Counted from the stretch's first letter, positions 2,571 through 53,997 are shown. The stretch: 64,000 bases of DNA from Piromyces finnis finn (GCA_002104945.1 MCFH01000012.1:186001-250000); one strand, 5' to 3'. The notes: a model not told the origin generated them from the letters alone. Program-made: numbers and translations.

Positions 2571-3263
2571 TTATAAAATAGCAATTAGGTCATATTTAAA
2601 TAAATATTCTATCCAAACATCAATAATATTATATCTTGTTGTTTTAATTAAATTTGGTATAGAAGAAATTAAAGTATATATTAAAAATGCTTGTTTTGGT
2701 CTCGTACAACAATATTCATTAATATTATTGTTAGTTACGGTATTTACTATGTATTCTATTAAATCGATATTTTCATTTGTATTATTTTCGAATAAATCTG
2801 TAATGTCCGAAAAAGAAATATTTTTATAATTTTTTAGCAAAGGCAATTCACATTCAATATTATCGAAACATACAGAGTATATTAACACTTCTATTAATTC
2901 TTTTTTATCATAAAAATTATTTATATTTCTACCACGATTTATATTTCGAAGATTATTCGAATCTTTATTGTTTTTTGAGTAAAGATTTAAATTATTGCAC
3001 AAGTCGCGATAACGAAGAGTAAAATCATTACATAATACATAAATATATTTCAGACGATTATTAATCCGTTTACTTGTTTCTTCATCGTAATGTTTTTTAA
3101 ATACAGAAGATAAGTTTTTCAATTTTTTATCCTTCAATAAAGTCCAATTATTAAATTTACCATCACTATAAATTATCATTTTGGTAAAATCATTAACAGA
3201 ACGTTTTTTGTTACTGGCATAGGAAGTGTTTTTAATACTAGAAAAATAGGAGATATAGAACAA
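2571..3263 (-). pseudogene. probable C-terminal fragment of NCLDV D6/D11-like helicase
   Basis: 230-aa ORF overlapping and collinear with the upstream helicase fragments. RGRNINNFYDKKELIEVL resembles C-terminal tails of these proteins (inference). Confidence 0.4.
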
Positions 3264-3735
3264 TCCTTCGTACTCTAGCCAATAAGGACTGAATAGATAT
3301 AATATTTTTTAAGTTTAATTTAAAACCATACTTTAAAATTTCGAGAATTTCTGTATATAAGAGCTTAGAAATGATGTTATAAAATTCATTCATTAAATTA
3401 GTTTCTAAAAGATCTTCCATATGTTTTATGTAATTTACAGTTTTTTCACCTCTGATTTTTAATAAAGGATAATGATTTTGGGTAGCATTTTGAGAATTAC
3501 ATTCAATATTTTTATTTTTATAATCTTTTAATGAATCATTTGGCATATATAAGTTAGAAAATAAGTCAATGGACATGTTGGTTTCAACTATATTTGTAGT
3601 ATTTTTGTTGTCATTACCACAACAATGAATATTTGATGCTGTATCAAGATAAAATAGTCCGCATGAGTATTCTAAAATTTTTTCATTGATAATAACATTT
3701 TTAGTTTTAATAATATCAATAATTTTATTTAGCAT
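3238..3735 (-). pseudogene. middle fragment of NCLDV D6/D11-like helicase
   Basis: Follows 3763-3912 after a frameshift/stop, same strand, no introns. Confidence 0.4.
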
Positions 3736-3912
3736 AAATTTATTTACCGTGGATACTTTTTTTCAAAAATCTTTAAGGCTTATATAATCACATAAATTGA
3801 ATACGTTTTTAAATTCATTACATACTATTGAAAGGTACTTTGATAAATTTTCATCTAGATAATTTTTAGAATATTGAAAACTGTCTATGGTGTCGGTGTC
3901 GGGGTTAATATC

Positions 3913-5850
3913 TGTAAAAGTATAAAATTTAAAACAGATTTTATACTTAACAAAACAATTTTTATTAACACAAAAAATAAAAAAATAAAACATTAAATTT
4001 TTATTTTAAAAAAAAACATTTTTATTTAAACTCTTAAAAATATTATTAACTATATAATAGTTAATAATTAAAAAATTGAAAATAACAATTACATCGATTT
4101 AATAAACAAAAATTACATGTATTTATATTTTTTCATAATTATATTCTAATATATTATTCTATTTAAATAAACATATATTTAATATAAAATAAACAACACT
4201 AATCTAATTAAATAATAAAATAACAAAACTAAACTAAAACTAATTCATTATACTTTTAATTCAACTTGAGTAAACTCAAAATTGAATAAAGCCCATGTAT
4301 TATTTATAAATTAATTTAATATTATCAATATGTAAAAGTATAAAATTTAAAACAGATTTTATACTTAAAACAAAACAATTTTTATTAACACAAAAATAAA
4401 AAAATAAAACATTAAATTTTTATTTTAAGAAAACATTTTATTTAAACTCTTAAAAATATTATTAACTATATAATAGTTAATAATTAAAAAATTGAAAATA
4501 ACAATTACATCGATTTAATAAACAAAAATTACATGTATTTATATTTTTTCATAATTATATTCTAATTGTAAAGATATAAAGTATATCTTTAAATTATTTA
4601 ATAATTAATTAATAATTATTGAATAATAATTTTGATATTTTAATGAAAAAATTGTTTATAAAATTTATTGTATAAATTTTATGGAATAATTAAATAAATA
4701 TTAATTTTAAAATATCAAAGTTAGAAATGAAATTTGGATAAATATTTAAATTAATGGATAATTAAATTTAAATATTTTAAATATTCAAATTAAATCTTAA
4801 AAAGTTTTTATTTAATTAAAATTAGTTTAATAACTTTAGCGTAGTTTTAAATTAGCATTTTTAATTATAAATATATAATAAATAGTATTATTAATATTTA
4901 ATTAATATATAGGTAATACATGGACTGTATTCAATTTGCAGTTTACTCAAATTGAATCAAAAGTGTATTTAATTAGTTTTAGTTTAGTTTTATTATTTTA
5001 TTATTTAATTAAATTAGTATTAAATTAGTTTTGTTTATTTTATATTGAATATATGTATAATTAAATAGAATAGTATATTAAAATACAATTTACAAAAAAT
5101 ATAAATACATGTAAATTTTCTTAATTAAAACGATGTAATTGTTATTGACTATTATTTAGTTAATAACTAAATAAAATTAATAAAAGAGATATTTTTTTAA
5201 ATATAATTTATTTTCTTGTTTTTTCTTTATTTTGTGTTGTTGTTTTATTGTAAAAAATTTTATAATCTGTTTTACATTTATAAAACTTTTACACTAATAT
5301 ATTATTCTATTTAAATAAACATATATTTAATATAAAATAAACAAAACTAATTTAATTAAATAATAAAATAACAGAACTAAACTAAACTAATTCATTATAC
5401 TTTTAATTCAATTTGAGTAAACTCAAAATTGAATAAAGCCCATGTATTTTCTATAAATTAATTTAATATTATCAATACTATTCTTAATATATTTCCTATT
5501 GAAATATAAATAAATCTATTTTTAAAACTAAGTTAAAATTATTAAACTATTCTAAATTTAAATAAAAAAGTATAATCTATTCTAAAATTAAATAAAAGTA
5601 TTTAAAAAAATATTTTAATTATTTAAAATATTTGAAATATTTAAATTTAATTAAAATTCTTTTATTCCTTAAATTTAAATATTTATCTTAATTTAAATTT
5701 AACGGAATTATTATAAAATAATTTATTATTAAATTATTCCATAAAACTTATTCAAAAATTTTATAATCAGTTTTACTAAATATTAATTTATTATTTAATA
5801 ATTAATAATTAATTAATAAATAATCTAAAGATATATATTATATCTTTACA
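3913..5850 (-). mobile_element. compound family-A solo-LTR nest
   Basis: A partial LTR (3913-4330) is followed by a full LTR (4331-5850) that matches 23644-24433. Outer TSD ATATC at 3908-3912 and 5851-5855. Confidence 0.85.
4567..5293 (+). mobile_element. solo LTR, family A subtype, inserted in opposite orientation into another A LTR
   Basis: TGTAAAGATATA...AAACTTTTACA. TSD CTAAT at 4562-4566 and 5294-5298. Confidence 0.85.
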
Positions 5851-8800
5851 ATATCATTGTCAGTATTTGAATTATCGGAATTATTTTTTGATTTCTTTTT
5901 ACAAATTAGTGATTCAATAGAAGCATTTTGTAAAGCTTCATTATACCTGAGTGCTTGATTATACTTTTTTTCACTGATTATATATTTGACATAATCAATA
6001 CTGTAATTTATTGAGTTTTCATATTCGAATTCATAATCATTGTTATAGGCCATGTACAGATAAATATTAACATTTCTTTGGTCTGGAGGTAAAGTATCAT
6101 GAGATCCTACTCTACGAATTCGACCAATAATTTGATTGATTTTTTCATAATTCCAGTGTGGTGTTAGTATATGCAATTGACGAACATTCATAATATCTAC
6201 GCTTTCTGATAAAATATCACTTAGTTGATAAATTTATTATCTACTTCAATTTTGTTAGAAATCGGTTCATCAAACGCATCAAATACATTAACTTTACTTA
6301 ATAATTCAGTAGTTCCTTTAAAAGACTTATAACTCGAAACTAGTTCATTATACATTTTGTCATCGACTTTTCCTGAAACTTTTATTATTTCGTTTACACT
6401 ATGGCTCATATCTTTTTTTATTGTTTTTACACAACTATTAAATTCTTCTTTGGTATTATAATTAGGATTTTCGTTGTTACTATCAACTTCTTTATATAAC
6501 TTTTTGGCATCATCAATGGATTCGATTTTATCAAATTTTTTACTGCTAATTTTATTATAGTTTGTTGCTACTTTATTTGCATTTTTTAAATTGGTTTGTT
6601 CATAGGTTTCAATATTACTTATACTGTCACTTTTATCTTTAACCTTACTTAAGAAATTATTTATATTTGATAATGTACCTAAATCATTAATATCATCCAC
6701 ATTTCTGAAAAATGATGGTTCATGCTTTATTAATTTATACTTCATATTATTGCAACGCTTTATATCTATTAATTGATATCTTCCGGTGGATTCATCTGTA
6801 AATATAACCATGGCGTCGGATTTAGATTTAACTACATCATTAATTATAACTTCCAAATCTTCTGTCCTAGGTTCGACTACTTCTAAATTGCCAAATCTGT
6901 ATTTTGTAATACCATTGCCATCTTTGTTTACATAATTTTCAACTTTTCCTTTAATGTGTGGGAACTTTTTACGATTCTCTTCAATAATTTTATCTAACCC
7001 TTTATATAATAATTTTACACGTAAATAATTTAATCGATCAGATAATGTCGAGTCATCATTTATATTTATACGTTCTAAAGAATCAAAATTGTCAGATTTA
7101 CTTACTGCTATTGATATGACTTCATCGTAATTGTTTATCAAGTCAATTAAATGAAGGGCTTCTTCATTATGACCTTCTGGTTGCTCGTAGTTATTGAAAC
7201 GTTCTATTTTTTCTTTTATTTTAGAAGCAATATCCTTAATCTCGTTAGTCATCTCATCTGAAATATTATTTTCAGAACTACCATCAATATCATTTATGAG
7301 TTTACTCTTTATACTATCGAAATATTCTTTAACATATAAATTCTCGGAATTATTTATTATAAAGTCTTTTACATCATCCAAGTTTTTAATGACGTGGTTT
7401 AAATTAAGCTTATTGGTCAACTCAACGTTTGATTTATTTAAATCTTTGGTTTTAATTCTGTGTTTCTCGATTAATCCTCTTATTTCTGAATCTCCTTCCG
7501 AATAGACTTCTTCAAACTTTTCGACTAAACTATCCTTCAATTTATAAACCATTTCTGAATTATTTACGTATTCCGGATCGGCATTACTGTAGTTTTCTTT
7601 ATCAAATATACTTTCTAAATAATCAATTTTGTGATATAAATTTATTAAATAATTCCTAATTTCATTATCTTCTTTGTCCACATCATTTATATTTTTAAAT
7701 ATTTCTAATATCTGCTTAAATTCTTCAGTCCTATCAGCATCGTCAATACTATTTTTATCAAAATTGTGAATCATTAATGAATTATCAATGACATTGTCAC
7801 TAACATTAATTAAGTTGTATACATCTCCCAAAATACTAAGTAATATTTCATCAGCATATAATGATTGAGATTCAATATCAGGTTTAATAATTGCGTTTAT
7901 TTTATAATTGTTTATTTCTAATTCACCATATCTACCTTTATACACTTCAAGAGCTTTGTTAAATAAATATTCCATTTCGTGCAATTTCTCTTCATTAATA
8001 TTAATCAGCGACTTGTCTTCTGAATACTCCGACTTTGAATATTTGTAATGGTACCCATTGACAGTTTCATAAAGTCCTTTAATAAACTTTTTACTTTCTT
8101 CTTCACTCATTTCATTAATGTGATCTTGAAAACTGTTCACGCTTATTTCTAAGACATTAACTATCGATTCAGCATTCTTACACAATTGTTAGGCTCGGAA
8201 ATATCGTTATTTTCGAAAGCAATCAATATATTTTCGGGATCGTACATTTTAACTATACTTAATGTTGAATGTAATGACTTTTCAACATTATAATTTCGGG
8301 ATATCGTCATCGAAATTGAACAACTACCACCTGTTGCTCTTTTTCTCAACTTACTAATACCACATTGATTAATTTGCGCATTACTTATTTGATTAATCGA
8401 ATTATGCAATTTAACAGTATCAACAAGATCATTAAAATTACCATTTAACTCTTCGTTACTATCAAAATGAAGCAATCCTTTATACGAAGGATATTTCAAT
8501 TTTTCTAAGATGATTTTGTTATAATTATCAATTACAAAAAATTCTTCTAATGTTAATTTATTGGAACCCTCGTCAATCGTTTCTAAATCAATGTTTCTAT
8601 TTACCAGCAAATTATTGGTAATTTCATTCATGGATAAATTATTTGGGTCTGTTTCACTACATATGATGTTAGTATTTCCATCCTTATTATCTGCTAGCAT
8701 GGCATGGAAAACTCTAGCGTCAATAACATTAAGGCAAAATTTACTATCAAGGTTTTCACCGTACTTATCTTGAATAATGGTATCTTTGGAAACATCATCA

Positions 8801-10198
8801 GCACTTAAACTATAGTCTTCCGGATTTAAAATCGTTCCATCAGATAATTTAAATTTAATAACACATTCAGCAAAAAGATCTATACCTGTTTTTATTACGT
8901 ATTGATCATCAAAATCAAAGTCTTTGTTATATATATCACTATTAATTTTCATTAAGTTTATTAATTTATAACTCATTTCATTATACTCATTATCACTATT
9001 AATTTCGTAAATATAATCATCAACATTACTTAATGTAAATGCATGTATGGTCTTCTCGGAAATATCATCATTTATAATAAAGGAATAATTATTTATTATA
9101 TTACCGTCATTATCTGTATTTTCATGAGTAATAACATTGAAAGAAATTTTTTTATTGTTAATATCGTTAAAATTATTATTGTTATTATTATCACTATTAC
9201 TATCTTCATGCCAATTTGTAAAATGTTGCTTACAAAGTGGTGATTTAATACAACCAATTGCTATTACTTTAAATAAATCATCATTTATATTAGCATTTCT
9301 ACTATCATCTAAATCATTTGCATCTTTGATACTCCATTGATTTTTAATATTTGTATTTAATAAATCAAATGAATTTATATCAGTTTCTTCATCAATATTA
9401 TTATTACTTATGAATCCTATAAACATATTATCAAAATCGGTATTTGATGATAAATTGTAAAGAAATGTGTCTTTAACAATAAAACAAATTATAATATTTA
9501 CTAAATAACTTAGTAATATTAACACTTTAAAATATTCTGTAAATTATTAATTTATAAAAATATCATTAAAAACACATAGAATTTAACTTAATAAGTTAGT
9601 GTTTAATAATATAATTATTTATTAATAAAATCTCGATTCTTTAAAATATTTGGAAAATTCACTCGTATTTATACTAAAAATTTTTTAAATTAATTTATAA
9701 AATTTTTTCAACTTAAAATTCTTAACCAATCAATAATCTTCATATAAAATAAAATTTAAAAATAAAATAAAATCATAATTTTTAAAATAGTATCTATGAG
9801 GTCTTGAACTAGTGTCATTCAGACTCAAAGTCTTAGCTACTAACCACTAAGACAATTTAGTTATTTCTAGTATTCGTTACATGATCCTCCTCCAGGATTC
9901 GGATACCAGACGAATCTAGAATTTTAATATTTAAATATATATATCTTTCTTTTTAATAAACTAAACTAAGGAGTGAATTTTCTTAATTATAAAAAATACA
10001 TTTAATATAATAAAATACATTTTTTTTTTTTTTTTTTAATATTACTAAAGTTAAAAATAAAATATTGATAAATTTGATATTAATAAATTGTTTAATAATA
10101 AAATTGATATTGATAATGATATTAATAAGTTTTGATAATAATAATAATTGTGATTTTAATATTAATAATAAATATAATTTGAATTTTTTAACTATTTT

Positions 10199-11932
10199 TT
10201 ATTTCTTTCCATTAAATTTTTTAAGTAGCTCCTTGCAATTTAGATTTTCTTCAGGCTCCCACGAAGCTTCATTGATTGAATACCCTTTCCATTTAATTAG
10301 GTATTGTATTTTTCCGTAATGTCTTCTTTTATCCAGAATTTCTTCAACTTCGTATTCTTCTTCATTGTCAACGGTAATAGGTGGCGGTGGTGGTTGAGAT
10401 CTTCCAAATTTATCTTCGACATATTTCTCGAGATTGGATACATGAATAACTGGATGAATCTTAATAGATTTTGGGAGACTTAATTTAAATGTAACATTTG
10501 ATATTTTTTCCAAGATTTTGTATGGGCCGAGTTTTCTTGGCTTAAATTTTTTATTTCCTTTGTGGATAATTAAAGAACTATCCAGCCAAACTTTGTCACC
10601 AACTTTAAAATTCGGAGCTTCTTTTCTAAGTTTGTCAGCATGCTTCTTCTGGGTTTCCATGGCAGATTTTAAATTTTCTTTTAAGGTATTAATTAAAGTT
10701 TTAAAATCTCTTGTAAACTCTTCTGCTCTTGGGACTTTAGATAAGTCTGGAATAACTGGTGAATATTTTGGATGAAAGCCGTAATTCAAAAAGAATGGAG
10801 AAAATTTGGATGATTCTTGAACCACGTTGTTATAACTAAATTCTGCAAGACTAAGAAAACTTTTCCAATTTGAACCTTTATAATTTGAGAAACATCTTAA
10901 ATATTGTTCTATAACGGAGTTCACCCTCTCCGTCTGACCGTTTGATTGATGATGAAATGGAGTAGACAACTTAAGTTCAATGCCAAGGGAGGAACAGATG
11001 GATTGGAAGAATTTAGAGGTAAATTGAGAACCTCTATCCGAGACAATAGATTCAGGTAGGCCATGAAGACGGAAAATATTATCAATAAATGCTGTGGCTG
11101 TTTCGGCGGCGGAAGGAATACTTTTGAACGGAATGAGATGAACCATTTTTGTAAGACGATCAACAACAACAAGAATGCAAGTGAAACCAGAAGATGAAGG
11201 CAAATCTGTAATGAAATCCATTGAAATGGATGACCAAGGACGCTCAGCAATATCAAGAGGATTCAGAAGACCATAAGGTTTATGACGAAAGGTTTTTGAA
11301 CGACAACAAACTTCACAAGAACGAACGTAGTCTTTAACATCAGAAGAAATAGAAGGCCACCAGAAGTCTCTAGCAATAAGAGAAGATGTTTTCTTTATTC
11401 CGAAATGACCAGCTGAAGGAGAGTCGTGACAGAGTTTAAGAATTGAAAGACGACAATTTGGAGGAACATAGATTCTGTCAGTAAAAAGGAGAAAACTATT
11501 GCTTAAGGAAAATTTGTCAATTTGAGGGTGAGGTATTGGAGGTTTCCTACAATCAAGATATTCACAGATTTTATTATAAAAGTCATCATTTATATATTCG
11601 GAAAGAAAAGAATCACTAATGGACGAAACAGAAGTCACAATGGCACAAAAGTTTTCAGGGCGAAGAACATTAAAAGGAACATCAGAAGAGGAATTCGAAT
11701 TGATAGCATAATCAGGACGACGAGATAGAGCATCAGGCTTACCGTTAGAAGAACCAGAACGATAAATAATAACAAAGTTAAATTCAGAGAGAAACAAAGC
11801 CCAGCGAACAAGACGTTGAGACATTTTTTCAGGTTTCTTTTGATAGAGTAAATTTCGATGATCCGAGTAAATCTTAAAAGTAGAAGAAGAGCCTTTAAGT
11901 AGATGACGCCATGTTTCAAGAGATGACGCCAT
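10199..11932 (-). CDS. pol: RNase H tail-integrase-chromodomain
   Basis: [12 protein letters not shown] zinc finger, MDFITDL / VSDRG / GQTERVN DDE core, LGPYKI GPY/F motif, [27 protein letters not shown] chromodomain. Confidence 0.95.
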
Positions 11933-14652
11933 GTTTCAACGATAGCTAAGAGCTCTTTATCATATATTGGATAATTACGTTCAGGACCAGTAAGAGAGCG
12001 AGAAAAGAAAGCAACTGGATGGGTCATATTATCAATTGGAGAGACTTGCGAGAGAATAGCACCAATGGCAAAGTTACTTGAATCAGTTTCGACTATGAAT
12101 GGAAGTTCACGGTTAGGAAATATAAGAACAGGAGCAGAAACAAATAAGGACTTGAGTGAATCGAAAGCATCTTGAGCTTCTTTAGACCATACAAATTTAA
12201 CATTTTTCTTCAAAAGTTTATGCAAAGGATGAGCGATCTTTGCAAAATTTGGAATAAATCGACGGTAGTAGTTCGCAAGACCAAGAAAAGATTGAACCTC
12301 TTTAACATTAGATGGAGTAGGCCAGTTTAAAATAGAAGAAACTTTATTTGGGTCCATGTGAATACCATCAGTAGAAATCCTATGACCAAGGAAATCAATA
12401 AAAGAAACAAAGAACTCGCATTTTTCCAATTTAGCATAGAGCCCAGCATCCCTCAGGAGTTTCAAAACAGTTTTGACATGAGATATATGAGATTTATAAT
12501 CAGAGGAAAAAATAATAATATCATCTATGTAAGAGAAAGCGAATTTACCAAGAACGTCTTCAAGAACATCATTAATGAAATGTTGAAAAACAGCAGGTGC
12601 ATTTTTCAACCCAAAAGGCATCACACAGTATTCAAAATGACCTAACTTGCAAGTAAAAGCGGTTTTATATTCATCACCACTTTTAATCCTGACCAAGTTA
12701 TAGGCAGAACGAAGATCCAATTTTGAGAAAATCTTCCCTTTTCCAAGATGTTCAAGCATATCTTGTATAAGAGGAAGGGGATAAGAATCACGAATAGTTA
12801 TGGAGTTTAATTGGCGATAGTCAACACACATACGAAGTTGACCGTTTTTCTTAGGTACAAACAGAATAGGAGCTCCCGCAGGCGATTTTGATTTTCTAAT
12901 AAATCCTTTCTTGAGATTTTCTTTTATATATTCTTCTAAAGCAATTGATTCGGTTTCTGTTAGAGGATAAATCGGTCCATAAAACAGTTTTGAATTTTCT
13001 TTGAGTTTTATTTCACAATCGTATGGACGGTGTGGAGGAAGTTTTTCAGCATTAGATTCATTGAAGACATCAGCAAAGTCAGAGAGAACATCCGGAAGTA
13101 TAATAGAAGAATTGGGTTCTGATTTAGAGTTTGAATCGGATTTGAGAATAGAATTGGATTGAATATTAGAATCAGAAAAAGAAGTCAAAACAGAAGTTTG
13201 TTCTTGATTTGAGAGAGACGAAGTAGAAAAGTTAACAGAAGACTTCTTAGAAACAGAATTGTTAATATTTTTAGAAGAACCCGAACAGAGAATAGTACAA
13301 GTACGATTAGTTTCGTTTTGAGATTGGATGTTTTGTTTATCGACAAATATAGGGTAAGCGAGTGAATCATGCGGAGGTTCGTAAGAAGGATCTTCCATTG
13401 CAGGAAAAGCAGATCTTTCTTCAGGAAATTCAGGGACATTATTGGAGAGTGTTATACAACGATTATAACAGTAATCGGATACAAATGAAATTTTGTTCTT
13501 TGTGAAATCGATAGAAGGATTGTGTTCTTTAAGCCAGTCTATTCCAAGAATACAAGGATAATAAGGTAGATCAGTTACATAGAATTGTGTTCGACAGAGA
13601 TGATCTTTGTAGCGAAGATTCAAAGGAGATGTAATTCCAAAAAGAGATTGTCGACCACCGATACCAACGATATTTGGGAGGTTACCATCATCATGATAAG
13701 GAATGTTATTATCGTTACAGTAATCTACATCAATTAAATTAAGTTTGGATCCTGAGTCAATAAGAATATCCGTATTTAGTTCATAAGAAAGTTTAAATTT
13801 AGTTGTCATTTTATTATGAGTTTTGTTTTCTTCTTTAGGAGCGGATATAAGTGTGGGAATAGATATTAGTGAAGGATTTTCACGATCTTTATTCTTTCTT
13901 TTTGGACAATTATTAAGCTTATGACTTGAAGCACCACAATACACACAAAGATTTTCTTTCTTTCTTCTTTCCTTTTCTTCGTTTGAGATAGGGCCATGGT
14001 TATTCCTGTTTGTAATGGACTTTGTTATTTTTGAAGAGTGATGAAAAGATCTTTTCTTTCGGTTTTGGTCATTGTTTGAACCAGAAGGGAAAAAGGTATG
14101 GTGTGTAGATAATCTTGAATCGATTCTTGAAGCAATAGTCTGTAATGAAAGAAGATCCCTAGGACCCGGAAACATTTCCAAAATACGAACGGCAACTTGT
14201 TGATTAAGGCCAGCTATAAATGCATCCATTTTGGCTTGTTCATTCCAGTTTGATTCATCAGCATAGCGGTTAAATTCCAAGATATATCCTCTAATTCCTC
14301 CTAATCGGCGTTGTTTTAAGGTTCTAAGCATTTGATTTGCAACATAGGTAGCATCGTTATATCCATAAAAAGCCTTAAACCTGTCAACAAAAGCTTGGTA
14401 GTTATTAAGACACGGATCATGGTTGTTTATAAGAGTAGCAGCCCAATTCATAGCGTCCCCATAAAGTCTTGATATTATATAGAGAATTTTGGTTGCGTCG
14501 TCTTGATACCGTTCAGGATATAGCATAAACACTAGCTCCACCTTAGCTAAGAAACCCTTCAGATACCTGCGATCCCCTGCAAAACCATCCTTAAGAGTTG
14601 CGTTTTCGAAAATATTATTATTATCCATGTGGTTGTTTTCGTTCTCTTCCAT
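11635..14652 (-). CDS. gag-pol: Gag-protease-RT-RNase H (frameshifted at C-terminus)
   Basis: [14 protein letters not shown] knuckle, IDSGS protease, YIDD RT, ETDSS RNase H. The frame is lost at the duplication at 11901-11937. Confidence 0.93.
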
Positions 14653-23335: not shown

Positions 23336-23613
23336 AAAATAAAAATATTTGTAATTTTTTTATATTATTTTATTTAAAATTTAAAGTAAAATAAAAAGAG
23401 TTTTAAAAAATTTTAAAAATTTCAATTTTAAAGCATTATTTTTTAATATTATTGTTTTTTATTCATTCATATTTAATTAATTTATATTTATATTATAGGC
23501 ATTAATTATAGTAAATATTTTAATAATATTATTATTCTTTCTTTTTTAGATTTTGTTAAAAAAGAAACTTTTTATCATTTTTTTTTATTTTTTATATACT
23601 ATAATATAAATAT

Positions 23614-36100: not shown

Positions 36101-36133
36101 TTCTTCGCCCTGAAAACTTTTGTGCCATTGTGA
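33116..36133 (+). CDS. gag-pol: Gag-protease-RT-RNase H (frameshifted)
   Basis: Same motifs as 11635-14652; one amino-acid difference seen. Confidence 0.93.
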
Positions 36134-39457: not shown

Positions 39458-39521
39458 TTTTGAAAAATTCAAAAATTTCGTCAATTAAAAATTTAAGGGA
39501 AAATGGTGGTATATAGATAAT

Positions 39522-41105: not shown

Positions 41106-43753
41106 TTGTATTTAAGGAGGGACATTTGATATGAAATATTATATAAAACTCTAATTATTAATAAAATTATTTTATTAATAATTACATAAAATAAATTAAA
41201 ATAATCATGTAACAACGTGACTAAAAGCAATTGAGGCGTAAATAAACTCACAAGATAAAATAAATTTAAGTGATAACATAAATTTATTTTATTAATTTAA
41301 GTAATATAAACATAAAATTATAACATAATTTTATGTTATGTATATAATTTCTTTTATTTATTATTTTATTTATAATATTTTATATTTTATATTTATATTT
41401 TATTATATTTTTATTATACTTCAATAAATATTTTTATACTTTTTATACTAGTTATTATATATTTATTAATTAAACAAACAAAACATAGTTTATAATTATT
41501 AAAAGATATATAAATGTATTATTATTTCTTATAATTAATTCTTTGCTTCTTGTATTTTTTTTAGCCAAATTTATATTTAATAAAATTAATTTGAAATAAT
41601 ATTACATAAAATTTCCCCCTAAAGGAAATAGAACCGAGTTATATCAGATGTCATATATTCATTCTTAAAATATTATTGGATGGATGAATAAGATACCAAT
41701 AGGATATAAGTTATAAATTGAATATGAATAGAATAACTATAGGATACTAATAAACTATTAATAATATGAAATTAATATATTAATAAATAAATATATATTT
41801 ATAAGTATATATTATATATAAACAATAATTGTAATTTTTTAATTTAAATATTTTATATATTTTATATATTTTATATATTTTATATATTACAAATTATTAA
41901 GTTTTTTAAAAATATATTTTAAATAAATTAAAAAAAAATAAAATTATAATATCTACATTAAATATAATAATAATATATATATTGATATATATATTATTAT
42001 TACTATTATTATTATTTTTTAAAATGAAAATTTTTAATTCTATTTTATGTTTACAAAGTTTTTCGTTAATAGTAAGTTTATTTGTCTATTAAATGGTAGC
42101 AATAAGTACACAGGATATTGATACAAGTGGTATTAACATATACCATCCAATTGTATACTTTTTATTTATCCTCTTAAAACATAACGAAACTAAAAGAACA
42201 AAATCTTATTCATTGATTGCTAAATACCTGGAAACCTATAATCTATAATATAAAAATTGATAATGATGAAAGTAATGAAAAGGATAGAATCCCAAATGAA
42301 GAAATTGGAATTCTTAATAATCGATTAAATAATATAAAGATTGAAGAAAATAATACTTTGGAAAATAAGAAATTCAAAAATGACATTATTGATATCATTT
42401 ATAGTTGTATTGAAGAATTTGGTTTACGTATTGTAAATATTTCTCGATTAATGACTATTAAAAGGTATTATGGTAAAACTTCATTATCAAATCATTCTAT
42501 ATTCAATATATTTACAATTTTAAATTTGGGATATTTTGTGTATAGTGACAAGGAATGGTATAAATTCTTTTACAGTCTTAATGGATGGGAATCAATAAAT
42601 TCTTACGACATAGCTAAAGAAATAAATTTGTATTTGACAAGAAATCTTAAGAATATGTGTATCGAATACAATATATCTTTAGATGGCATCACTAATGAAT
42701 TAATGAATTTCTTTACCAATCATACCATAATCTATAATCACTTGGAACAACTTGAAACCTTCTTTTACACACATGATTTTATTAAACGAATTGATAAAGG
42801 TAATGTATTAAGATTCGAAGACTGCGTTTATGACTTTGATATTGGAGCTCCACGTCCTGGACGTCCAATGATTTTTGTCTTAAATCAACCAATTACAATT
42901 ACTATAATGATAATAGGAATAAAATGGAAGAAGTCTATCAATTCTTAAGAGATATTTTTGTTGAGGAAGACTTGATAAATTATGTATTAAAAGTGATAGC
43001 TTCTAATCTTACTCTTGGTAATAAATTACGTTCCATTTTGTTTTTCATTGGATCTGGTCGTAATGGTAAAACTACCTTTACCAATATGTTAAGACTTGCA
43101 CTTGGAGTGTAAAGATATCAAACGCCTCTGTTTGATATCTTTAATGTAACTTAAGCCACAAGTATTATTGTTTAAGTTACACAAATTATATTCAGAAAAA
43201 GAAAATGAGACATAATTTATTTATTAATAATTAAAGTTTAAAACAAAATAAATTATTAATTTATTTTTAATGTTTAACAAGTAAATTAATATTCTCAATT
43301 TAAATCCCTAGTTTTAGTATTGTTTTTTTTATAGAAATAGATAAATAATAAATGATTAATATATCAATAATACATGGGCACATATTCAAATTAAATAGTA
43401 CTTAATTTGAATTGCCAATTGTATTTTACTAAAAATAGTTATAGTTTAAATATTTATTAATAATTAAGATTTTAGTGTAGATTTTAAATAATAATATATA
43501 AGAAATAAATAGTTATAATATAATATAAATGTATTTAGGAAAAATATAAATAGAAGATATTTTTCATCATTTTATCGATGTAATTGTTATTATTAAAATT
43601 CTATTATAATAAAAGATATTTTATAAAACAATTTTTTATTTTATTTTTTCAAAATCTTGTGTTATTGTAATAGAATAGATATCCTAATCTATTCTTTCTG
43701 TGTCGCCATTACAATAACAATTACCTAACGAAAACCAAGAATACGTTAGGGTA

Positions 43754-43880
43754 TCTACCGCCGAGTAAAAGAAGAAAAAGAAGGAATAACTACTGGGTTG
43801 AAATTGAGTCTACCGCCGAGTAAAAGAAGAAAAAAGAAGGAATAACTACTGGGTTGAAATTGAATCTACCGCCGCCGAGT
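43754..43880 (+). repeat. ~55-bp tandem repeat (2.3 copies) in E5 leader
   Basis: TCTACCGCCGAGTAAAAGAAG.. at 43754, 43809 and 43865. Confidence 0.85.
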
Positions 43881-44080
43881 GGGAAGAAAGGACCAAGAAT
43901 AACCATTAAGGATTGATTAGTAGTACAAAACTTGTTCGACACTGCTTTTTGCAGAACGCGTCTGAATAACTTTTGTATTGTTAGATATACTAAAATTATC
44001 TTTTATAAATAATTAAAAAAAAAAAAAAAAATTACTTACTTGAAATAGTAGTAAGAAAACATTTTATTTATTTTAGTAAG

Positions 44081-47000
44081 TTGGAGGGTTTAATTAGTGA
44101 ATTTGAAAATTTGAATTTGGAAATGGGTGATAGGAATGTGGGTGTTTCCGGGAACTCGGGGAACATTATTAATGCTCCACCGATATTCTCTGGTAAACAA
44201 CGTGAATTAGATGGATTTTTAACTAGAGTGGAGTTGGTATTTCGTACTCGACCGACACTGTACAATACAGATCGAGTCAAGGTCGACTTCGTTATATCAT
44301 ACTTCTCTGGTAAACCTTTGGAATGGGCTTCAGTGTTGATGAAGAATAATAGTGGGGTTTTAAACCATTATGATGAATTTGTAGATAGGTTGAAGGCTAA
44401 TTTTGGCAGTTATAGATACGATACCGTTGTAGCTAACGGAAAATTAGATAATCTTCGCCAAAGGAAACTTGGTCAGGTATTAGATTACATTACCGAGTTT
44501 CAACGTATTAGCCAAAATTCAAGCTTTAATGATAGCGCAAAAATCTACATGTTTCTGAAAGGTTTATTACCACCACTTAGGGAGAAGTTGGCTTTCATTG
44601 AATCAAACCCAACTTCAATTGAACAATTAATTTCTTCAACTATTTTAGTTGAAGATATGATGAAAAGGAATTCTTTAAGTGAATTTTATTTTAATGGTAG
44701 AAGGGCTAATGATCCTATGGATGTGGATGTATTTAAAATTAGTAGAGAGAATAAACGAAAAAGGTATGTGAATATTCAAGGATCAAGTAAAAATTACAAT
44801 GAAAACATAGATAACTTTGAAGAAGAAAAGAAAAAAGGGTTATGTTTTCTTTGTAAACAACCGGGACATTTAAAATTTAATTGTCCTAATAGAGTAAAGC
44901 CCAGAAAAGTGTTAAGAATTGTTAAAGAAAGGACTCCAAAAATTGTTAATCCAAAAATTTACAAAGTTGGAGTTAAGGGAGTGAAAAGTGATTTAAACCT
45001 TGTGGACTTTTACTTGAGTACCAATGAAGTTTCGGAAGTTAAAATTAAGGTTTTAATTGATTCCGGTTCTGAATTAAATTTCATTAATCCAAGTCTTGCT
45101 GAAGAACTTGGTATTAATTTGGAAAAAGTGGAACCATTCCGTGTTTCAGGTGTTAGTGATGGAGTTGTTAGTGTTTGGGAAAGGACTGAGAAGTGCATGC
45201 TCCGTTGCAAAAATCACTTCGAAGTAATTCAACTTTATGGATTACAAGTCCCCGGTGTTGATGTTATTCTTGGTTTGCCGTGGATAAAGAAGCATAATCC
45301 AAATGCTTTCTACGACTCTAAGAAAATCGCTTTTAGTTCTGGTTATTGTGCCAGACATTGTAATAAAGGCAAAAGAAAGAGAAAACCAAGAAAGAAGTCA
45401 AAGAATGATCAGTTAGATCATGATGTTCTCGACCGAAGCTTGACCAAAAAACCGAAAGTAGATCCCTCTGTCCCAAACAATGAAGAAAAAGAATATGTTA
45501 AAGGCCGCCTTGTTAGAACCATCAATGATGAAGATGATAGCGATGATGAATATATTAGTTTTAATAAAAAAGTTAAATGTATTGTAACAAAAATTAATGA
45601 AACATGTAATAATGATAACGAATCATGTAGTAATAATAATAATAATGGAAAAGATATTAATAAAGATAAATTGGTCGCCGTACCAACCCAATATTTAGAA
45701 TTTAGTGAAGTGTTTAATGAAAAAAATTGTGAAGTGTTACCTCCTCATAGACCTTATGATTGTGAAATCAAACTTAAAGATGATTCGACTTTATTTTATG
45801 GACCTTTGTATCCATTAACTGAAGTTGAAAGAGAGGAACTTAAAAAATATATTGATGATAATTTAAATAAAGGTTTTATTAGGAAATCATCGTCTCCTGC
45901 TGGTGCCCCAATTTTATTTGTTAAAAAGAAGGATGGCTCCCTAAGACTTTGTATCGATTATAGAAAGTTGAATGATATTACCATTCGTAATTCATATCCT
46001 TTACCTTTAATTAGTGACCTTTTGGATAGGGTGAAAAATGCTAAGATTTTTACTAAATTAGACCTTAAATCCGCTTATAATCTTGTTCGTATTAAAGAAG
46101 GTGACGAATACAAAACGGCTTTTCGTACTAGATATGGACATTTTGAATATCTGGTTATGCCTTTTGGATTAAAGAATGCACCTGCAACTTTTCAACACTT
46201 CATTAACGATGTCCTTAGTGACTATTTAGACGATTTTGTTATCTCATATATTGATGATATTCTTATTTATTCTAATAATATCGAAGAACATCATGAGCAT
46301 GTTAAAAAGGTACTTAAGAAACTACTTGAAAATAATCTTTATGTTAAATTAGAAAAATGTGAGTTTGATGTTGAGAAAACCACTTTTCTTGGTTATGTCA
46401 TTTCAAAGGATGGATTGCAAATGGATGAAAATAAAGTTAAAGCAATTCTCGATTGGCCGGTTCCCAAGAATGTTAAAGAGGTTCAGTCTTTTATTGGTTT
46501 ATGCAACTATTACAGAATTTTTATTAAAGACTTTGCTAAAATTGCAAACCCTCTTCACAAACTCACTAGAAAAAATGTTGCTTTTAACTGGGTGAAAGAA
46601 GATCAGGACGCTTTTATTTTATTAAAATCTCTGTTCACGTCAGCTCCTATTCTGAAACATGCGGATAGTAATAAACAATTTATTGTAGAAACTGATGCTA
46701 GTAATTATGCTGTCGGTGCTATTCTCTCTCAAGAATTTGATGGCAAATTACATCCTATTGCATTTCTTTCTAAAAGTTTGACGAGTTGTCAAAGAAACTA
46801 TCCTATATATGACAAGGAACTTTTAGCTATTGTAGTTGCTCTTGAAGAATGGCGTCATTATTTAGAAGGTGCACGCCATCCGTTCATAATTTATACTGAT
46901 CACAAGAATTTAACATTTCCTAGAAAACCTGAAATGTTATCTCAGAGACAAATTAGATGGAATTTGTTCTTATCCAGATTTGATTTTAAACTCATTTATA

Positions 47001-48673
47001 GAGCTGGAAAGAAATCCGGTAAGCCTGATATCCTGTCTCGTAGAAGTGATCATGTAGAGAATAATATTAATTCTGATGTTTCTTGTCTTACTATTTCGTT
47101 TCATCATAGCGATAACAAACCGTTAATCGATTCTATTTTATTAGAACTTAAAAATGACGATTTGTATAATTCTATTGTCCAATTTAAAATGAATGGTTCT
47201 GCATGTAATGCACCTATTAAAAATATTGATAAAGTTATTATTGATAACGAGGGATTTTTGTTATATAATAATCTTATTTATGTTCCTAAATCTCTTAGGA
47301 CAAGAGTTTTGGAACTTCATCATGATTCTGTTGCTGCTGGTCATTTCGGTATTAAGAAAACCACTGAACTGATTTCCAGAAACTTTTGGTGGCCAAGGTT
47401 TCATTCAGACGTTAAATCTTTTATCAAATCTTGCGTGACTTGTTGCAAATCCAAAGTCCCCAGACATAAGCCTTATGGATTGTTATCCCCTTTGGACACT
47501 CCCAGTAGGCCCTGGTCTGATATTTCTATTGATTTTATTGTTGATCTTCCTAAGTCCAGAGATATGACAACTCTCATGGTTGTTGTCGATAGATTTACTA
47601 AATTTGCTCACGCCATTCCTTTACGTTGTCTTCCTACTGCTTCGATTGCTGCTGATGCTTTTATTGCTAATGTCTTCCGTTTGCATGGTCTTCCTGATTC
47701 CATCATTTCTGATAGAGGCTCGCAATTTACTTCTGACTTTTGGTCAAGACTTTGTGACCTTCTTAATATCAATCATTCATTATCAACTGCCAACCATCCG
47801 CAGACAGATGGTCAAACGGAGAGGGTGAACGGCATATTAGAACAATATTTCCGTTGTTTTATAAATAAAAAGCAGAATAACTGGGTTGATCTTATCCCAT
47901 TTGCTGAATTTGCATATAATAATACTTTACAACAATCTATAAATTAATCTCCATTCTTTGCTAATTATGGTTTTCATCCAAAGTTCAGCTTAGAAATTCC
48001 AGCTAATGATAGACCTAGTAGAGCTGAACAAAGAGTAATTGATATGAATGAAAACTTTAAATTATTAAAAGAAAACTTAGAAAAAGCAAAAGAAACATAT
48101 AAGAAATATGCCGATATGAAGAGAATGATTCCCCCGGAGTTCGAAGTGGGAAAGAAGGTATGGTTATTGAAAGATTCTCCTGGAACTAACCTAAAGAGAA
48201 AATTAGCACCTCAAATGCTTGGCCCATTTGAGATAATTGGAAAAGTTAGTTCTCTCGCTTTCAAATTGAAACTCCCAAAGACAATGAGATGTCATCCAGT
48301 CTTTCATGTTTCATTGTTAGAACCATACTTTGAAAACAAGTTTAACGACAGGTCTAATCGTAGGAAGAGGAACATTCACCTTAACACAGATTTAATTGAA
48401 AAAATTCCAGAGAAAATTGAAAAGATGAAATCTGTTAATGGTGAAACATTTTATAAGTTATCATGGAAAGGATTTGACAAATCCACTTGGATTTCTGAAG
48501 ATCAGATTCCAGATAAACAATTAATACAAGAGTTTGAAAGAAACTCTAAAAAGTCAAAATATAAGTCGAACGACTCCTCCATGAAAATTAGAAAGAATAA
48601 AGTAGGTAATCTAATCAAGCACAGATACCAACCATTTGTAATTGAAATTCCTTCGAGAAAAGATTCCTTATAA
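44081..48673 (+). pseudogene. gag-pol: Gag-Pol polyprotein with one in-frame stop at 47945-47947
   Basis: CFLCKQPGHLKFNC, IDSGS, YIDD, ETDAS, HHCC, DDE. After the TAA the same frame continues SPFFANYGFHP..LGPF..chromodomain-like KLSWKGFDKSTW. Confidence 0.92.
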
Positions 48674-50733
48674 ATTAATCTCGCAGGAGCTCGACTTAGA
48701 GAGAGAGATTGTAAAGATATCAAACGCCTCTGTTTGATATCTTTAATGTAACTTAAGCCACAAGTATTATTGTTTAAGTTACACAAATTATATTCAGAAA
48801 AAGAAAATGAGACATAATTTATTTATTAATAATTAAAGTTTAAAACAAAATAAATTATTAATTTATTTTTAATGTTTAACAAGTAAATTAATATTCTCAA
48901 TTTAAATCCCTAGTTTTAGTATTGTTTTTTTTATAGAAATAGATAAATAATAAATGATTAATATATCAATAATACATGGGCACATATTCAAATTAAATAG
49001 TACTTAATTTGAATTGCCAATTGTATTTTACTAAAAATAGTTATAGTTTAAATATTTATTAATAATTAAGATTTTAGTGTAGATTTTAAATAATAATATA
49101 TAAGAAATAAATAGTTATAATATAATATAAATGTATTTAGGAAAAATATAAATAGAAGATATTTTTCATCATTTTATCGATGTAATTGTTATTATTAAAA
49201 TTCTATTATAATAAAAGATATTTTATAAAACAATTTTTTATTTTATTTTTTCAAAATCTTGTGTTATTGTAATAGAATAGATATCCTAATCTATTCTTTC
49301 TGTGTCGCCATTACATGGAGATTATGCTGCTACTCCGAACGTATTCTTATTTCTAGGAAAGTCCACCAGTGCTGATAAACCAAGTCCTCATATGATGGAT
49401 CTTAATAAATGTAGAATTTCGATTTGTGAAGAACCAGATGCTCGATCCATTAATATCACCGGTGATGCTAAAGCCATTACAGGAAATGTCGGATATATTA
49501 AGACTAGATATTTGTATAAAGATTTGCAAACTGTTTACGTTGATTTATTACCAATTATCAATACCAATGATAAATTAACTATATCCAATTTGGATAATGC
49601 TTTAATTGATAGAATCTTGGTTATTCCTTTCACTCAACGTTTTGTTAACAAAATGAATATCTCAATATTATCATCCACTCAAAATATTGACAACTCTTCC
49701 ATCAAGCAGGCCAACACAATGTGGCAAGGTTCTCATATTCAAATATATGCTGAAGCATTAATCCACATCTTGATCAAAAATTACCAAAAAGATTATACAA
49801 GTTTGGAGATACCTCAAAGTGTCATCCATGCTACAAAGCATTTTATTATGAGATGTGACCATATAGCCAGATTCTTGGAAAAGTATATTATTGATAAAAA
49901 TGACAACTTTGCCATTCCTATCGATGAAGTTTATTCCTTATATAAAGGTTGGTTTAAAAATTTTGTTTCTACTGGAGCTCTAAGTTATTGTTTGAAAGAT
50001 TTCCGTATGGATTTAATTAAATATAATATAAGAATAAAAAGTGTAATGTCATCTGATCATTTAGTTGAATCCATTGTTGGATATAGATTGGCAAAATAAA
50101 AAAATATTTAATTGCAGTTTATTAATTAAAATAGTTTAAATACTATATATTATTAACTTCATTTAAATAATATGTGTTATTATTATTTTTAATTAATTAT
50201 TGCAATAAAAACTTTAAATGTTTAATTTTATTAAATAAATAATATTTGTATATTTTGCTTATATTTATTTTAGTAATATTAAAATCTTAATATAATTTTA
50301 TTTATTTTTTAAAAAATAATTCATAATGTAAATAATTATTTAATTTTTTTAAGAAAAACTATTTTTTATTATTAATAATTATTATATATATTATATGCAA
50401 AATATTATAATTAATTATTGATTGTTTATTTAAATATATATATATATTTAATATATATACTAATGTTTATCATATAATCAAAATGTTATTATATTATGAA
50501 ATAAATTTATTAATATATATTAAATATATATTGTATATATTGTATATAAAATAAGTATTGTATTTGTTAATAATATTATAAATGTTATAAGTATTATATA
50601 TATATGAATGTGAATATATATATGTATTTTGTTAATATAACTATTATTTTAAAATGTAAAAAATAAATATTTGAATATATGTAAATTATTTTTTATTAAA
50701 TATTATTTTATTATTAAAAAAAATAATTATAAT

Positions 50734-53700
50734 TTATTTTTCATTTAGAGTTATATGTATTCCGATGGAATCTAAATAAGAATTCATAATATTAAAACTA
50801 TTTGAAATTGTTAAAGATTTCGTTGTGGAATTACAACATATTTCAGATATACTTATTGAATGACAAGTATTACAATATTTAATTTCCATAATATCTGCAT
50901 TATTTCGAAACATATCTTTTAATATGGCATTGGCACCATGTGCTATTAATGCATCCCTTTCCATTTCTCCGATTCTTAAGCCACCATTATTAGCTTTTCC
51001 TTCCGTTGGTTGCTTACTAATAGAATTAACACTTCCGGTAATACGATAAAACATTTTTTCTTCTACTTAATGTTGTAAAGCTGTATAGTAACAAACGCCT
51101 ACAAATACGGATCCTATATTTATTTCTGTATTAGGATCTATCATATTTTCTATGATTGGTATTTCACTTTTAATAAATGTTGAGAGGAAATATTTTATAT
51201 CATTACTTTCTATGGAAGCATTAAAAAATGTTCCAAATTTTTGAGGATCTATCACCATATACTTATCGACATACATTTCGATTAAATGGCCAACAGTCAT
51301 TCTGGATGGAAAGGCATGTGGATTAACAATGATATCTGGCATTATTCCATGTTCTGTTCTGGGTAATTCATCTTCTGGTAGTATTGATCCAATAACACCT
51401 TTTTGAGCATAACGACTAGCAAACTTATCTCCTTGTTGTGGCTTATACATATGGCGAACTTCCACACAACAATAACACATATCATCTTTAATAATCTTTA
51501 ATAAATGTGGTACAATACTCAACAATAACAGGCTTTCTAAAAATATTTTCTATATCTTCAACTTCATTCTTTACAAGATTATATTTCTTAAAAATTATTT
51601 CATTGGAACACGATGAATCTTGTGCAATTGGTGTATTTGGTTTGGGTAATCCATTTTCATAGTTTTCATTTATATTCGATAACATTTCTTCTTTAATATT
51701 GTAAGAAACATATTGATATCTATATTTAATATTACTAAACAAACCATTATCTATACTCCTGGCATTGAATATAACACTGTCTTCTTGATTATTTCCAAAT
51801 GCCATAATAGCTACCATCACATTTTGACCACTAAATCTATGATAAGTATTATCATTTGTTATTGTTGATGATGTTGTCATTGAATCATTATTGCCATTTT
51901 CATCTTTTTCAATATTGATATTTGTAAGAAGGTCAATTCGATTTCTGAATTCTTCATTATTTATCTGTATATTTCTTTTAAAATTATAATGCTTTATAAT
52001 TTCGTTTAAATAATTTTTATTATTTTCTTTAAAATCATTTTCTTCAAATTCATTACTATTATATTCATCATCATATTTGTAAATAAATTAAATAAATTAC
52101 TCAAGGTATAATTGGTATCATTAAATAAAATATTCAAAGGTTGATAATGACAAAATCTGCGTGATAAAATAGATTCTAATTTGGTCATACAAAATGAACG
52201 TTGAGCATGAATTAATTTTGAATTATCATTAAATTGAAATATTGTACTGTCATTTGACATACATTGTTTTGTTATACCTGCTTGAAATGTTAGTCTTGGT
52301 ATATGATTATTTCCTGGAAATGGGGAAAGAGCACTGATTAATCCAAATACAAAATTGGGATCTATTTCTTCATATTCATATTCGGTATTGCATTTGTATT
52401 CAGAAATGTCGATAAATCTTACACCTATTTCAGATCCATTTTTTAAGACTTTTATTGGTCTCATAATTCTTCCTTCATCCGTAAATATATAGAATGTAAC
52501 ATTATCGAATATACAACTAATAAATGGATATGTTAATTTTAATTCTTTATATACATATTCTACTAAATCAGTTGAAGTGAACCCAATGAACCTACTATTC
52601 AACAATACGGGATATTCTGTCGATTTGCTGTTTATACATGGATTCATATGATCATTAACAAAAGAATATAAAATTGATTTGTCTATTGAAAAGTCCGGTG
52701 CTACCAATACTGATATTCCAAAATACTTGACAAGGCCTACATCTTTGGATTCCGGTGTTTCAAAAGTACAGAAATAACCATAATCATAAGACATTCTTAA
52801 CTCCGAATTTTCACTTTCCGTATTAATCGGAATTTGAACTCTTCGTAAATGTGATAATTTATCATAATAGGAACGCTTACTAAGCGTCTGTACTGCAATG
52901 ACCGAGTAATCTTTGAAATAGGAACGAACTAGTCCGGTTTTAACATTATTAAATAATTTAAAATTTAAGTTTTTAACAAATTTATTCAATGGAACCTTTT
53001 TATTTTCTAATGTATAGTATTTAATAAAACGATACATTGAATATGGGAAAGTGTCAATACGATTGTTATAATGTTCTTTTGTATCGTAAAAGAAGGCTCT
53101 TGCCATCGACAGGTAAGTATAAAATTTAATGTCATTATTATTTAATTTATTTTTTCCTTCAGTATCAATAACAGGATGGAGTGAATCCGGAGTAAGATAG
53201 CTATCTATTATCTTATTAATTACAGAGATTATCTCTTCACTTTATTCTTTTCGATGTGAAATAATACTTTCGAAGGTATCTTCTGGTAAAGAATCCGGAA
53301 TGTCAATTACAATATTTTCTGGTAGATTATTTCCAAAAAGAGTAGAAATAATGATATCTTTAATTTTAGCCATTGATAATTTCGGTTTTAAATAATGAAG
53401 AATGTACACGAGAGAGACATTTTGTTTATCATGATATTTAATTCCTTTTACCCGCAGATATTGGAAAAATAAAGAAAAATAGACTCGTATATCCAGATTA
53501 ATGTGATTTTTGACATTCTGAATCTTTTCATAACGTTCTTTTTCCATAAAAGTAGTTATAAAATCAATGTTTGTATTTTCATTTTTGTAATTCAAGTCTT
53601 TTTTATTTTTTCCAAGGACTATTTTTAAATACCTCACATATTTATAATTTGTAAACATTTCCAAAGACTGAAATTTTCCATATTTATTACATTCTTTGTA

Positions 53701-53997
53701 TTCTATGTAATCTTCTTTATTTTTATAAATAAAACATGGCGTACAAAATATTTCTTGTGATATAATAACCTTTTCAACACCGTACACTATAAACACACCG
53801 TCAATAGGTGCTGGTATTTTTATTTCATAAGATCCTTGAATCAGTGATATATAATAATAATCTTTTGATACCATTAAATCATCGTAACTGACTTTTGGTA
53901 TTGAAATAGTTAAATGATTTAATCCTTATTTTTTTCTATAAATTCTTTTATATCATAAATCTTCTTTATAAATAATTTATCAATATCTGCAAATACA
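50734..53997 (-). pseudogene. RPB2: DNA-directed RNA polymerase second-largest subunit, NCLDV-like, fragmented into five ORFs
   Basis: Conserved motifs in order: DGVFIVYGVEKVIISQE; LSHLRR..ETPESKDVGLVK; GQNVMVAIM..NQEDS; GDKFASRYAQKG..PDIIVNPHAFPSRMTVG; QPTEGKANNGGLRIGEMERD. Intronless and strongly diverged from cellular RPB2 consensus (ETPEG, SRHGQKG). Confidence 0.9.

What the first reader, a model, noticed from the sequence alone, without database searches (positions are those of the whole stretch)
2571..53997. Relic of an endogenous giant DNA virus spread across the window
Three intronless genes of Nucleocytoviricota core type occur within ~51 kb: a D6/D11-like SF2 helicase, a D5-like SF3 helicase and a divergent RPB2. 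D5 and RPB2 are adjacent and convergent. Each is cut by or abuts an LTR insertion, and the frames rejoin across the TSDs, so the viral genes were there first. Co-occurrence of these families is established as diagnostic of NCLDVs. Assigning them to a fungus-infecting lineage is inference.
Basis: partly seen in the sequence, partly recalled or inferred. Interest (0 to 1): 0.75.

Follow-up and report, generated by a model that had tools for sequence, protein, structure and literature searches.

The report
Broken fundsalphavirus pieces in gut fungus
These are broken, transposon-riddled pieces of a giant-virus-related DNA element already catalogued in anaerobic gut fungi, and the element was likely a compact, coat-less replicon with its own copying and transcription genes rather than a true giant virus.

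Summary
The three genes are real. RPB2 (54038-50734, minus) and D5 (42093-50099, plus) are convergent; only the C-terminal half of a D6/D11-type helicase survives (6233-2571). D5 and the helicase are cut by LTR insertions with 5-bp target duplications and rejoin in frame; RPB2 is not cut, only frameshifted. RPB2 and D5 have many relatives in anaerobic gut fungi. RPB2 sits in a clade with chytrid and moss sequences, sister to a pitho-like clade, and not with Pol II; D5 lies outside the phage helicases, its attachment unresolved. This matches the published fundsalphaviruses (Gong et al. 2020, PMC7017919). Corrections: the window holds two viral blocks that are not colinear, about 24 kb apart; PolB, RPB1 and capsid genes were not detected; a fourth gene, a huge secreted orphan, travels with the element. 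'Giant' is unsupported: published copies are compact cassettes and no capsid hit is listed for these hosts. The scan already reported this element on other DNA of this genome (e1-10593334). Verdict: new member of a known kind; the capsid-less reading stays open.

The parts
50734..54038 (-). RPB2 (RNA polymerase second subunit) pseudogene, 3 frameshifts and 2 in-frame stops, no LTR inside
   Evidence: Pfam; tblastn of P0001 in four segments at 75-88% identity; trees
42093..43107 (+). D5-type helicase, N-terminal part with Walker A, 2 frameshifts; intact relatives (about 590 aa) show no primase domain
   Evidence: tblastn of P0189; Pfam D5_N, DUF5906, Pox_D5 on P0189; PDB profile hits vaccinia D5, mpox E5, ASFV C962R
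43108..49315 (+). Ty3 chromodomain retrotransposon inserted in D5, TSD TGGAG, LTRs 0 differences in 606 bp
   Evidence: LTR-free joint in contigs of runs X1 and X2
49316..50099 (+). D5-type helicase, C-terminal part
   Evidence: 88% identity to P0189
5851..6233 (-). D6/D11-type SF2 helicase, motif V-VI region; N-terminal half absent, butted onto the truncated end of the large orphan gene (deletion inferred)
3913..5850 (.). nest of solo-LTR-like repeats (TG...CA) inside the helicase, TSD ATATC
2571..3907 (-). helicase C-terminal extension (one stop, one frameshift)
   Evidence: frame rejoins; a giant-virus helicase (L113) matches residues 4-196 of the X-joined reading, across the junction
6221..17831 (-). 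large secreted orphan gene (residues about 903-3003 of a 3044-aa Piromyces protein), truncated at both ends, frameshifted, likely element cargo
9456..15969 (-). Ty3 chromodomain retrotransposon inserted in the orphan gene, TSD TAAAT, LTRs 1 difference in 426 bp

Best explanation
The window holds two decayed chromosomal blocks of a fundsalphavirus-type element of an anaerobic gut fungus, an element that was likely a compact, capsid-less replicon descended from pitho-like giant viruses and that likely entered the chromosome by accidental integration before young retrotransposons landed in its genes. How it works, step by step: (shown in published copies, not in this window) the intact element carries PolB, D5, UDG, split RPB1, RPB2, RPB5, a D6/D11 helicase and a SAM methyltransferase in a conserved order; (inferred) such a set copies and transcribes DNA without the host nucleus, so the free form likely lived in the cytoplasm; (inferred) it carried secreted cargo genes such as the 2000-3000-aa orphan; (inferred) pieces were captured repeatedly by the chromosome, no integrase being seen; (shown here) these pieces then gained stops, frameshifts and a deletion and were hit by LTR elements whose LTR pairs are still 99-100% identical. 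The two blocks likely come from two copies or from an inversion plus deletion. Relic status and family membership about 0.95; the capsid-less reading about 0.5.
For: Family: the top 28 of 120 listed RPB2 hits (49-85% identity, 203-500 bits, then a drop to 178 bits) include 18 with an organism, all Neocallimastix; 8 of 20 D5 hits carry an organism, all Neocallimastigomycota. Same convergent RPB2/D5 pair, intact, in L014; neighbouring locus tags on one N. constans contig. Trees: window RPB2 in a 30-row clade (SH-aLRT 100) with Gaertneriomyces, Sphagnum and Lobulomyces proteins, sister (99) to a clade holding L269, whose 1,473,573-bp contig equals the Orpheovirus genome length; same result under LG+C20; grouping with Pol II-like rows rejected (p-AU 0.006). 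Gong et al. 2020 list this gene set and order (RPB2-D5-POL-RP1c-HELICc-DEXDc) in these hosts. Compactness and no capsid: their A32 and MCP trees list no Neocallimastigomycota hit; Myers et al. found MCP in 17 of 141 fungi, only Chytridiomycota, Monoblephidomycota and Blastocladiomycota; the related moss regions lack MCP and packaging ATPase and were put at about 13 kb; sister-clade contig L015 packs a capping-like gene, a primase-like gene, PolB and RPB2 in 8.2 kb. Order of events: LTR-free D5 joint in two runs.
Against: No whole genome was held, so I could not search this genome for capsid, PolB, A32 or RPB1; absence of capsid rests on published similarity searches that may miss a divergent coat. 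Whether Neocallimastigomycota were among the 141 genomes of Myers et al. was not visible (0 hits in readable supplements, 6 files unreadable). The D5 tree does not place the family inside the giant viruses (attachment 52/66). The RPB2 clade is long-branched and several rows have a skewed make-up; only one pitho-side row could be named, by length alone, and six GVMAG names were not in the taxonomy table; no Pol I, Pol III, iridovirus or marseillevirus row was labelled in my trees; the test against archaea was borderline (p-AU 0.046). Spacers are long and 7% GC, like host DNA, here and in L014, which fits long residence in chromosomes as well as a free plasmid. No free form, terminal repeat or terminal protein was seen.
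Confidence: 0.55

Rival explanations
1. The blocks are scraps of a genuine virion-forming large DNA virus (Pimascovirales-related) whose structural genes are too divergent to detect or were not captured; this is close to the first reader's and to Gong et al.'s reading.
For: RPB2 sister to a pitho-like clade; D5 profile scores best on giant-virus contigs (E 4e-42 against 5e-19 for the best phage-side locus); pithovirus-type capsid genes are divergent (own knowledge).
Against: About 20 published Neocallimastix contigs repeat the same compact core order with fungal-type flanking genes and no structural gene named; no MCP or A32 hit from these hosts; the moss relatives show the same gap.
Confidence: 0.3
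2. The element is a nuclear, self-synthesising transposon of giant-virus origin that spreads within the chromosome.
For: Many near-identical full-length copies: an 83-member cluster of 1177-aa RPB2, two on one 308-kb contig; 42 of 96 fetched family RPB2 proteins are at least 1050 aa and start with M; host-like spacers.
Against: No integrase or transposase other than those of the inserted retrotransposons in the window or in the published core order; a full transcription set is superfluous in the nucleus, the argument of Maumus et al..
Confidence: 0.12
3. The genes are divergent host paralogues or pieces of a yeast-type cytoplasmic linear plasmid (pGKL2-like).
For: Best PDB match of the RPB2 profile is Pol II RPB2; a preprint places linear-plasmid and moss D6/D11 helicases in one clade within the Marseille/pitho/irido group (passages); AT-rich DNA.
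Against: The profile scores only 283 bits on Pol II, against 1159 for a Pol II-like row; AU test rejects the Pol II grouping; 0 of 41 clade proteins carry the beta-prime DFDGD motif of a fused plasmid polymerase (motif recalled); a D5 helicase is not part of the pGKL gene set (own knowledge).
Confidence: 0.03

Closest known systems
Fundsalphaviruses, endogenous NCLDV-like elements of early-diverging fungi (Gong, Zhang, Han 2020, PMC7017919; main text parts 1-2 of 3 and supplement parts 2, 3, 5, 6, 7 of 7 read as text)
   Same: Same hosts (Neocallimastix, Piromyces, Anaeromyces, Pecoramyces), same genes (D5, D6/D11, RPB2), RPB2 next to D5, stops and frameshifts, retrotransposons nearby, RPB2 next to pitho-like viruses.
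   Different: This window lacks PolB (their defining probe), RPB1, RPB5, UDG and SAM genes; the helicase block points away from the D5/RPB2 block; a 2000-3000-aa secreted orphan is linked here (it may be their 'Fungi_specific_protein', not verified).
Physcomitrium patens NCLDV-like regions (Maumus et al. 2014, PMC4083422; passages and Discussion read)
   Same: Dense core replication and transcription genes, no MCP, no packaging ATPase, no integrase; a Sphagnum RPB2 falls in the sister clade here.
   Different: Moss host; about 13 kb reconstructed; no secreted cargo reported in the passages read.
Yeast cytoplasmic virus-like elements pGKL1/pGKL2 (own knowledge; search listing)
   Same: Works like: capsid-less AT-rich replicon with own RNA polymerase, D11-type helicase and capping function, plus secreted cargo; a Zancudomyces fundsalphavirus contig carries LysM-ChtBD1-GH18 zymocin-alpha domains.
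   Different: Separate RPB2 rather than a fused polymerase; D5 helicase and UDG; PolB of the cellular/NCLDV type in sister contig L015.
Mycodnaviridae (Myers et al. 2026, PMC13533422; passages read)
   Same: Nucleocytoviricota endogenised in zoosporic fungi.
   Different: They encode MCP and A32 and occur in other phyla; the authors call earlier fungal EVEs distinct and distant.

Membership tests
Fundsalphaviruses | PolB in the fundsalphavirus clade | tested here: inconclusive
   No PolB detected in the LTR-masked window with 6418 ORFs from fetched loci, including sister-clade PolB; rest of genome not available
Fundsalphaviruses | RPB2 in a fungal clade next to pitho-like viruses | tested here: met
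   published accessions were not compared directly, membership rests on the same host species and the same placement
Fundsalphaviruses | D5 adjacent to RPB2 | tested here: met
   same in L014 and in Gong Fig. S2 text
Fundsalphaviruses | D6/D11-like helicase | tested here: met
   C-terminal half only
Fundsalphaviruses | RPB1, RPB5, SAM methyltransferase | tested here: not met
Nucleocytoviricota (virion-forming) | Double-jelly-roll major capsid protein and A32 ATPase | tested here: inconclusive
   none in the window; genome not held; none listed for these hosts in Gong Figs S9, S10
Nucleocytoviricota (virion-forming) | Core replication/transcription genes of NCLDV ancestry | tested here: met
   RPB2 tree; D5 profile and PDB hits, D5 tree unresolved beyond exclusion from phages
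Nucleocytoviricota (virion-forming) | Genome above about 50-100 kb | not testable with these tools
   no intact element with both ends could be fetched (longest family locus 5.1 kb)
Cytoplasmic linear plasmids (pGKL type) | Fused beta/beta-prime RNA polymerase | tested here: not met
   0 of 41 clade proteins with DFDGD
Cytoplasmic linear plasmids (pGKL type) | Protein-primed PolB and terminal inverted repeats | not testable with these tools
   no PolB or element end in the window
Fungal Pol I/II/III second subunits | Nesting with cellular orthologues | tested here: not met
   Pol II-like grouping rejected, p-AU 0.006; profile scores 283/251/211 bits on solved Pol II/III/I chains; Pol I and III were not in the tree
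Polinton/PLV helicases | D5 nesting with Polinton helicases | not tested
   no Polinton row was identified among the 43 D5 rows

The most novel reading that the evidence does not exclude
Fundsalphaviruses are not giant viruses but a widespread, still-active class of capsid-less, 15-50 kb cytoplasmic replicons derived from pitho-like viruses, a second origin of the killer-plasmid way of life: they keep a minimal DNA polymerase/primase/helicase and RNA polymerase set, carry large secreted, dibasic-site-bearing cargo proteins, and span gut fungi, chytrids, mosses and dozens of unnamed metagenome lineages with shortened RPB2 (810-1100 aa).
Probability: 0.3. Interest if true: 0.75.

Novelty: new member of a known kind. 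Interest (0 to 1): 0.33.

Why it matters
As it stands it is one more decayed copy of a described element. It matters because the family is under-studied (1 paper holds the name), has many intact copies in culturable rumen fungi, and may be a giant-virus lineage that gave up its coat; that would make reductive evolution from giant virus to plasmid directly testable and would flag a new family of giant secreted proteins in rumen fungi.

Tried and rejected
No whole genome held, so no search for MCP, PolB, A32 or RPB1 outside the window. Viral-contig scans with the window piece, the family alignment and sister PolB found no gut-fungus family member; metagenome and genome scans gave only 3.3-5.1 kb family contigs. 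Single-sequence PDB search with the D5 C-half gave nothing; the profile did. ESM Atlas put D5 nearest phage-dominated D5_N/DUF5906 clusters and NCBIfam gave the P4-family primase model; INPHARED hits were 22-27% identical; these are family-level and were outweighed by profile scores and the tree. The AU test on 84 rows did not finish; a 31-row subset was used. Rows dropped: 23 near-identical or partial family and archaeal rows; 24 of 84. Structure models were too poor to use (lectin-gene piece pLDDT 32; orphan C-terminal piece pLDDT 46, mostly helical); no fold search was run. No Pfam or NCBIfam family for the orphan. No RNA holder listed for the D5/RPB2 stretch. Literature searches for an account of these elements in gut fungi beyond Gong et al. 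returned none: 0 papers; only PMC7017919; none on this family in the listings; the library lacks most subscription journals. The zymocin survey PMC11848437 has no passage on these hosts. No tRNA gene in the window.

Full report
Setting. The window is 12-18% GC between genes and is packed with Ty3 chromodomain retrotransposons. All named close relatives of its viral-type genes are from Neocallimastigomycota, so the host is very likely an anaerobic gut fungus. No whole genome was held.

Observation. RPB2 runs from 54038 to 50734 on the minus strand; Pfam finds domains 3, 4, 6 and 7 on its pieces and an intact 1074-aa relative aligns along its whole length in four segments at 75-88% identity, with no intron-sized gap. 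It has three frameshifts and two in-frame stops but no LTR inside. D5 runs from 42093 to 50099 on the plus strand, ends 634 bp from the RPB2 stop, has two frameshifts and is split by a 6.2-kb Ty3 with TSD TGGAG and identical LTRs; removing it restores the frame. Contigs of two runs carry the LTR-free joint, and several divergent D5 contigs lie on the gene in run X1, so the insertion is secondary and the gene is multi-copy in that organism's data. The helicase survives only from motif V onward (6233-2571), is closest to vaccinia NPH-I and VETF-S in the PDB, and is split by a solo-LTR nest with TSD ATATC; the frame rejoins and a giant-virus helicase matches across the junction.

A fourth gene. 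Upstream of the helicase lies a broken ORF (17831-6221) matching residues about 903-3003 of a 3044-aa Piromyces protein at 52-73% identity, cut by another Ty3 (TSD TAAAT). Intact homologues (1980-3044 aa) start with a hydrophobic signal-like peptide and contain dibasic sites; they have no Pfam or NCBIfam family. One lies 14 accessions from a family RPB2 on a 51,540-bp N. lanati contig, another on an N. constans contig of the same length as one carrying a family RPB2. The window copy stops about 40 residues short and butts onto the helicase half, which I read as a deletion that removed the helicase N-terminus (inference).

Phylogeny. In one search the top 28 of 120 listed hits form a family (49-85% identity) clearly apart from the next hits. 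A profile of 17 of them pulled in a wider set. [quoted passage not shown] Its sister (SH-aLRT 99 in both models) is a clade holding L269, whose contig length equals that of Orpheovirus. Named Imitervirales and Algavirales genomes, Pol II-like rows and archaea fall elsewhere. Forcing the clade together with Pol II-like rows is rejected (p-AU 0.006), with archaea only narrowly (0.046). Limits: long branches, skewed make-up, one pitho-side label by length only, no labelled Pol I, Pol III, irido- or marseillevirus rows. For D5, the family profile hits poxvirus D5 and ASFV C962R in the PDB and scores best on giant-virus contigs; the tree keeps the family outside the 13-row phage-side clade (100/99; head, tail, portal or terminase genes seen on 6 of the 10 of those loci spot-checked) but does not resolve its attachment (52/66).

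Known family. Gong, Zhang and Han 2020 (PMC7017919) described fundsalphaviruses in 14 fungal species including five anaerobic gut fungi, sharing D5, D6/D11, SAM methyltransferase, RPB1, RPB2, RPB5 and PolB, near retrotransposons and related to Pithovirus. The text of their Fig. [quoted passage not shown] The window's right block (RPB2-D5) and left block (HELICc-[missing DEXDc]-orphan) each fit that order, but the left block points away from D5 and the POL-RP1c bridge is absent, so the window is not one colinear copy; gene strands were not visible in the figure text, so this is inferred from domain order. Between the blocks lie a secreted lectin/dockerin-like gene with a likely intron, AT-rich DNA and nested Ty3 elements.

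How it works. A set of PolB, D5, UDG, RNA polymerase subunits, NPH-I-type helicase and cap methyltransferase is what a cytoplasm-replicating DNA element needs (established for poxviruses and other NCLDV). The A32 and MCP trees of Gong et al. list no hit from these hosts, Myers et al. found MCP only in three other zoosporic phyla, and the related moss regions lack both genes. Sister contig L015 is densely packed, and many family RPB2 genes are intact (42 of 96 fetched). I therefore favour a compact, capsid-less replicon with secreted cargo, captured piecemeal by the chromosome (0.55), over a virion-forming giant virus (0.3) and a nuclear transposon (0.12). No free form, end structure or expression was shown. 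Supplements I could not see (six files of PMC13533422; figures of PMC7017919 beyond their text) may bear on the capsid question.

Earlier scan notes. After writing down my own reading I found that another piece of this genome had been reported with the same family and the same capsid-less idea (e1-10593334); it is not independent support.

Verdict. Real, correctly recognised as NCLDV-derived, already catalogued as a family; new member of a known kind, interest 0.33. The open and testable point is whether the family has lost its coat.

Noticed in passing
window 18801-23335 (+): Broken secreted gene with a signal-peptide exon, a likely intron, long Ser/Thr-rich repeats, weak B-lectin similarity (Pfam E 0.044) and a dockerin-like motif (recalled); ESM Atlas gave only a weak aerolysin/ETX-MTX2 lead (score 0.76). 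A B_lectin gene also lies beside POL in an Anaeromyces fundsalphavirus contig, so it could be cargo or host.
   Followed up: partly
window 9456-15969 and 31783-38321: Two copies of one Ty3 element, 99% identical over 6.5 kb, in opposite orientation 16 kb apart; the second sits inside another Ty3 pol gene (TSD GGTAT). All four full elements have LTR pairs with 0-3 differences: a very recent burst.
   Followed up: partly
RPB2 cluster of P0005: Four of five members lie on metagenome contigs of 14,292-14,347 bp, a uniform length that could mark a free linear element or segment.
   Followed up: no
L015:1-8234: Sister-clade IMG/VR contig with capping-enzyme-like and stand-alone primase-like ORFs (my reading, no Pfam support), PolB and RPB2 packed with tiny spacers; fits the primase-less 590-aa D5 of the gut-fungus family.
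   Followed up: partly
P0216-P0354: About 25 unnamed metagenome RPB2 proteins, many of 810-1030 aa, form deep sister lineages of the family, so the clade is far wider than the fungi and mosses named so far.
   Followed up: partly
L014:1-5134: An intact RPB2/D5 pair of this family sits in a Methanosphaera metagenome-assembled genome, likely a fungal-element contig binned by mistake.
   Followed up: partly
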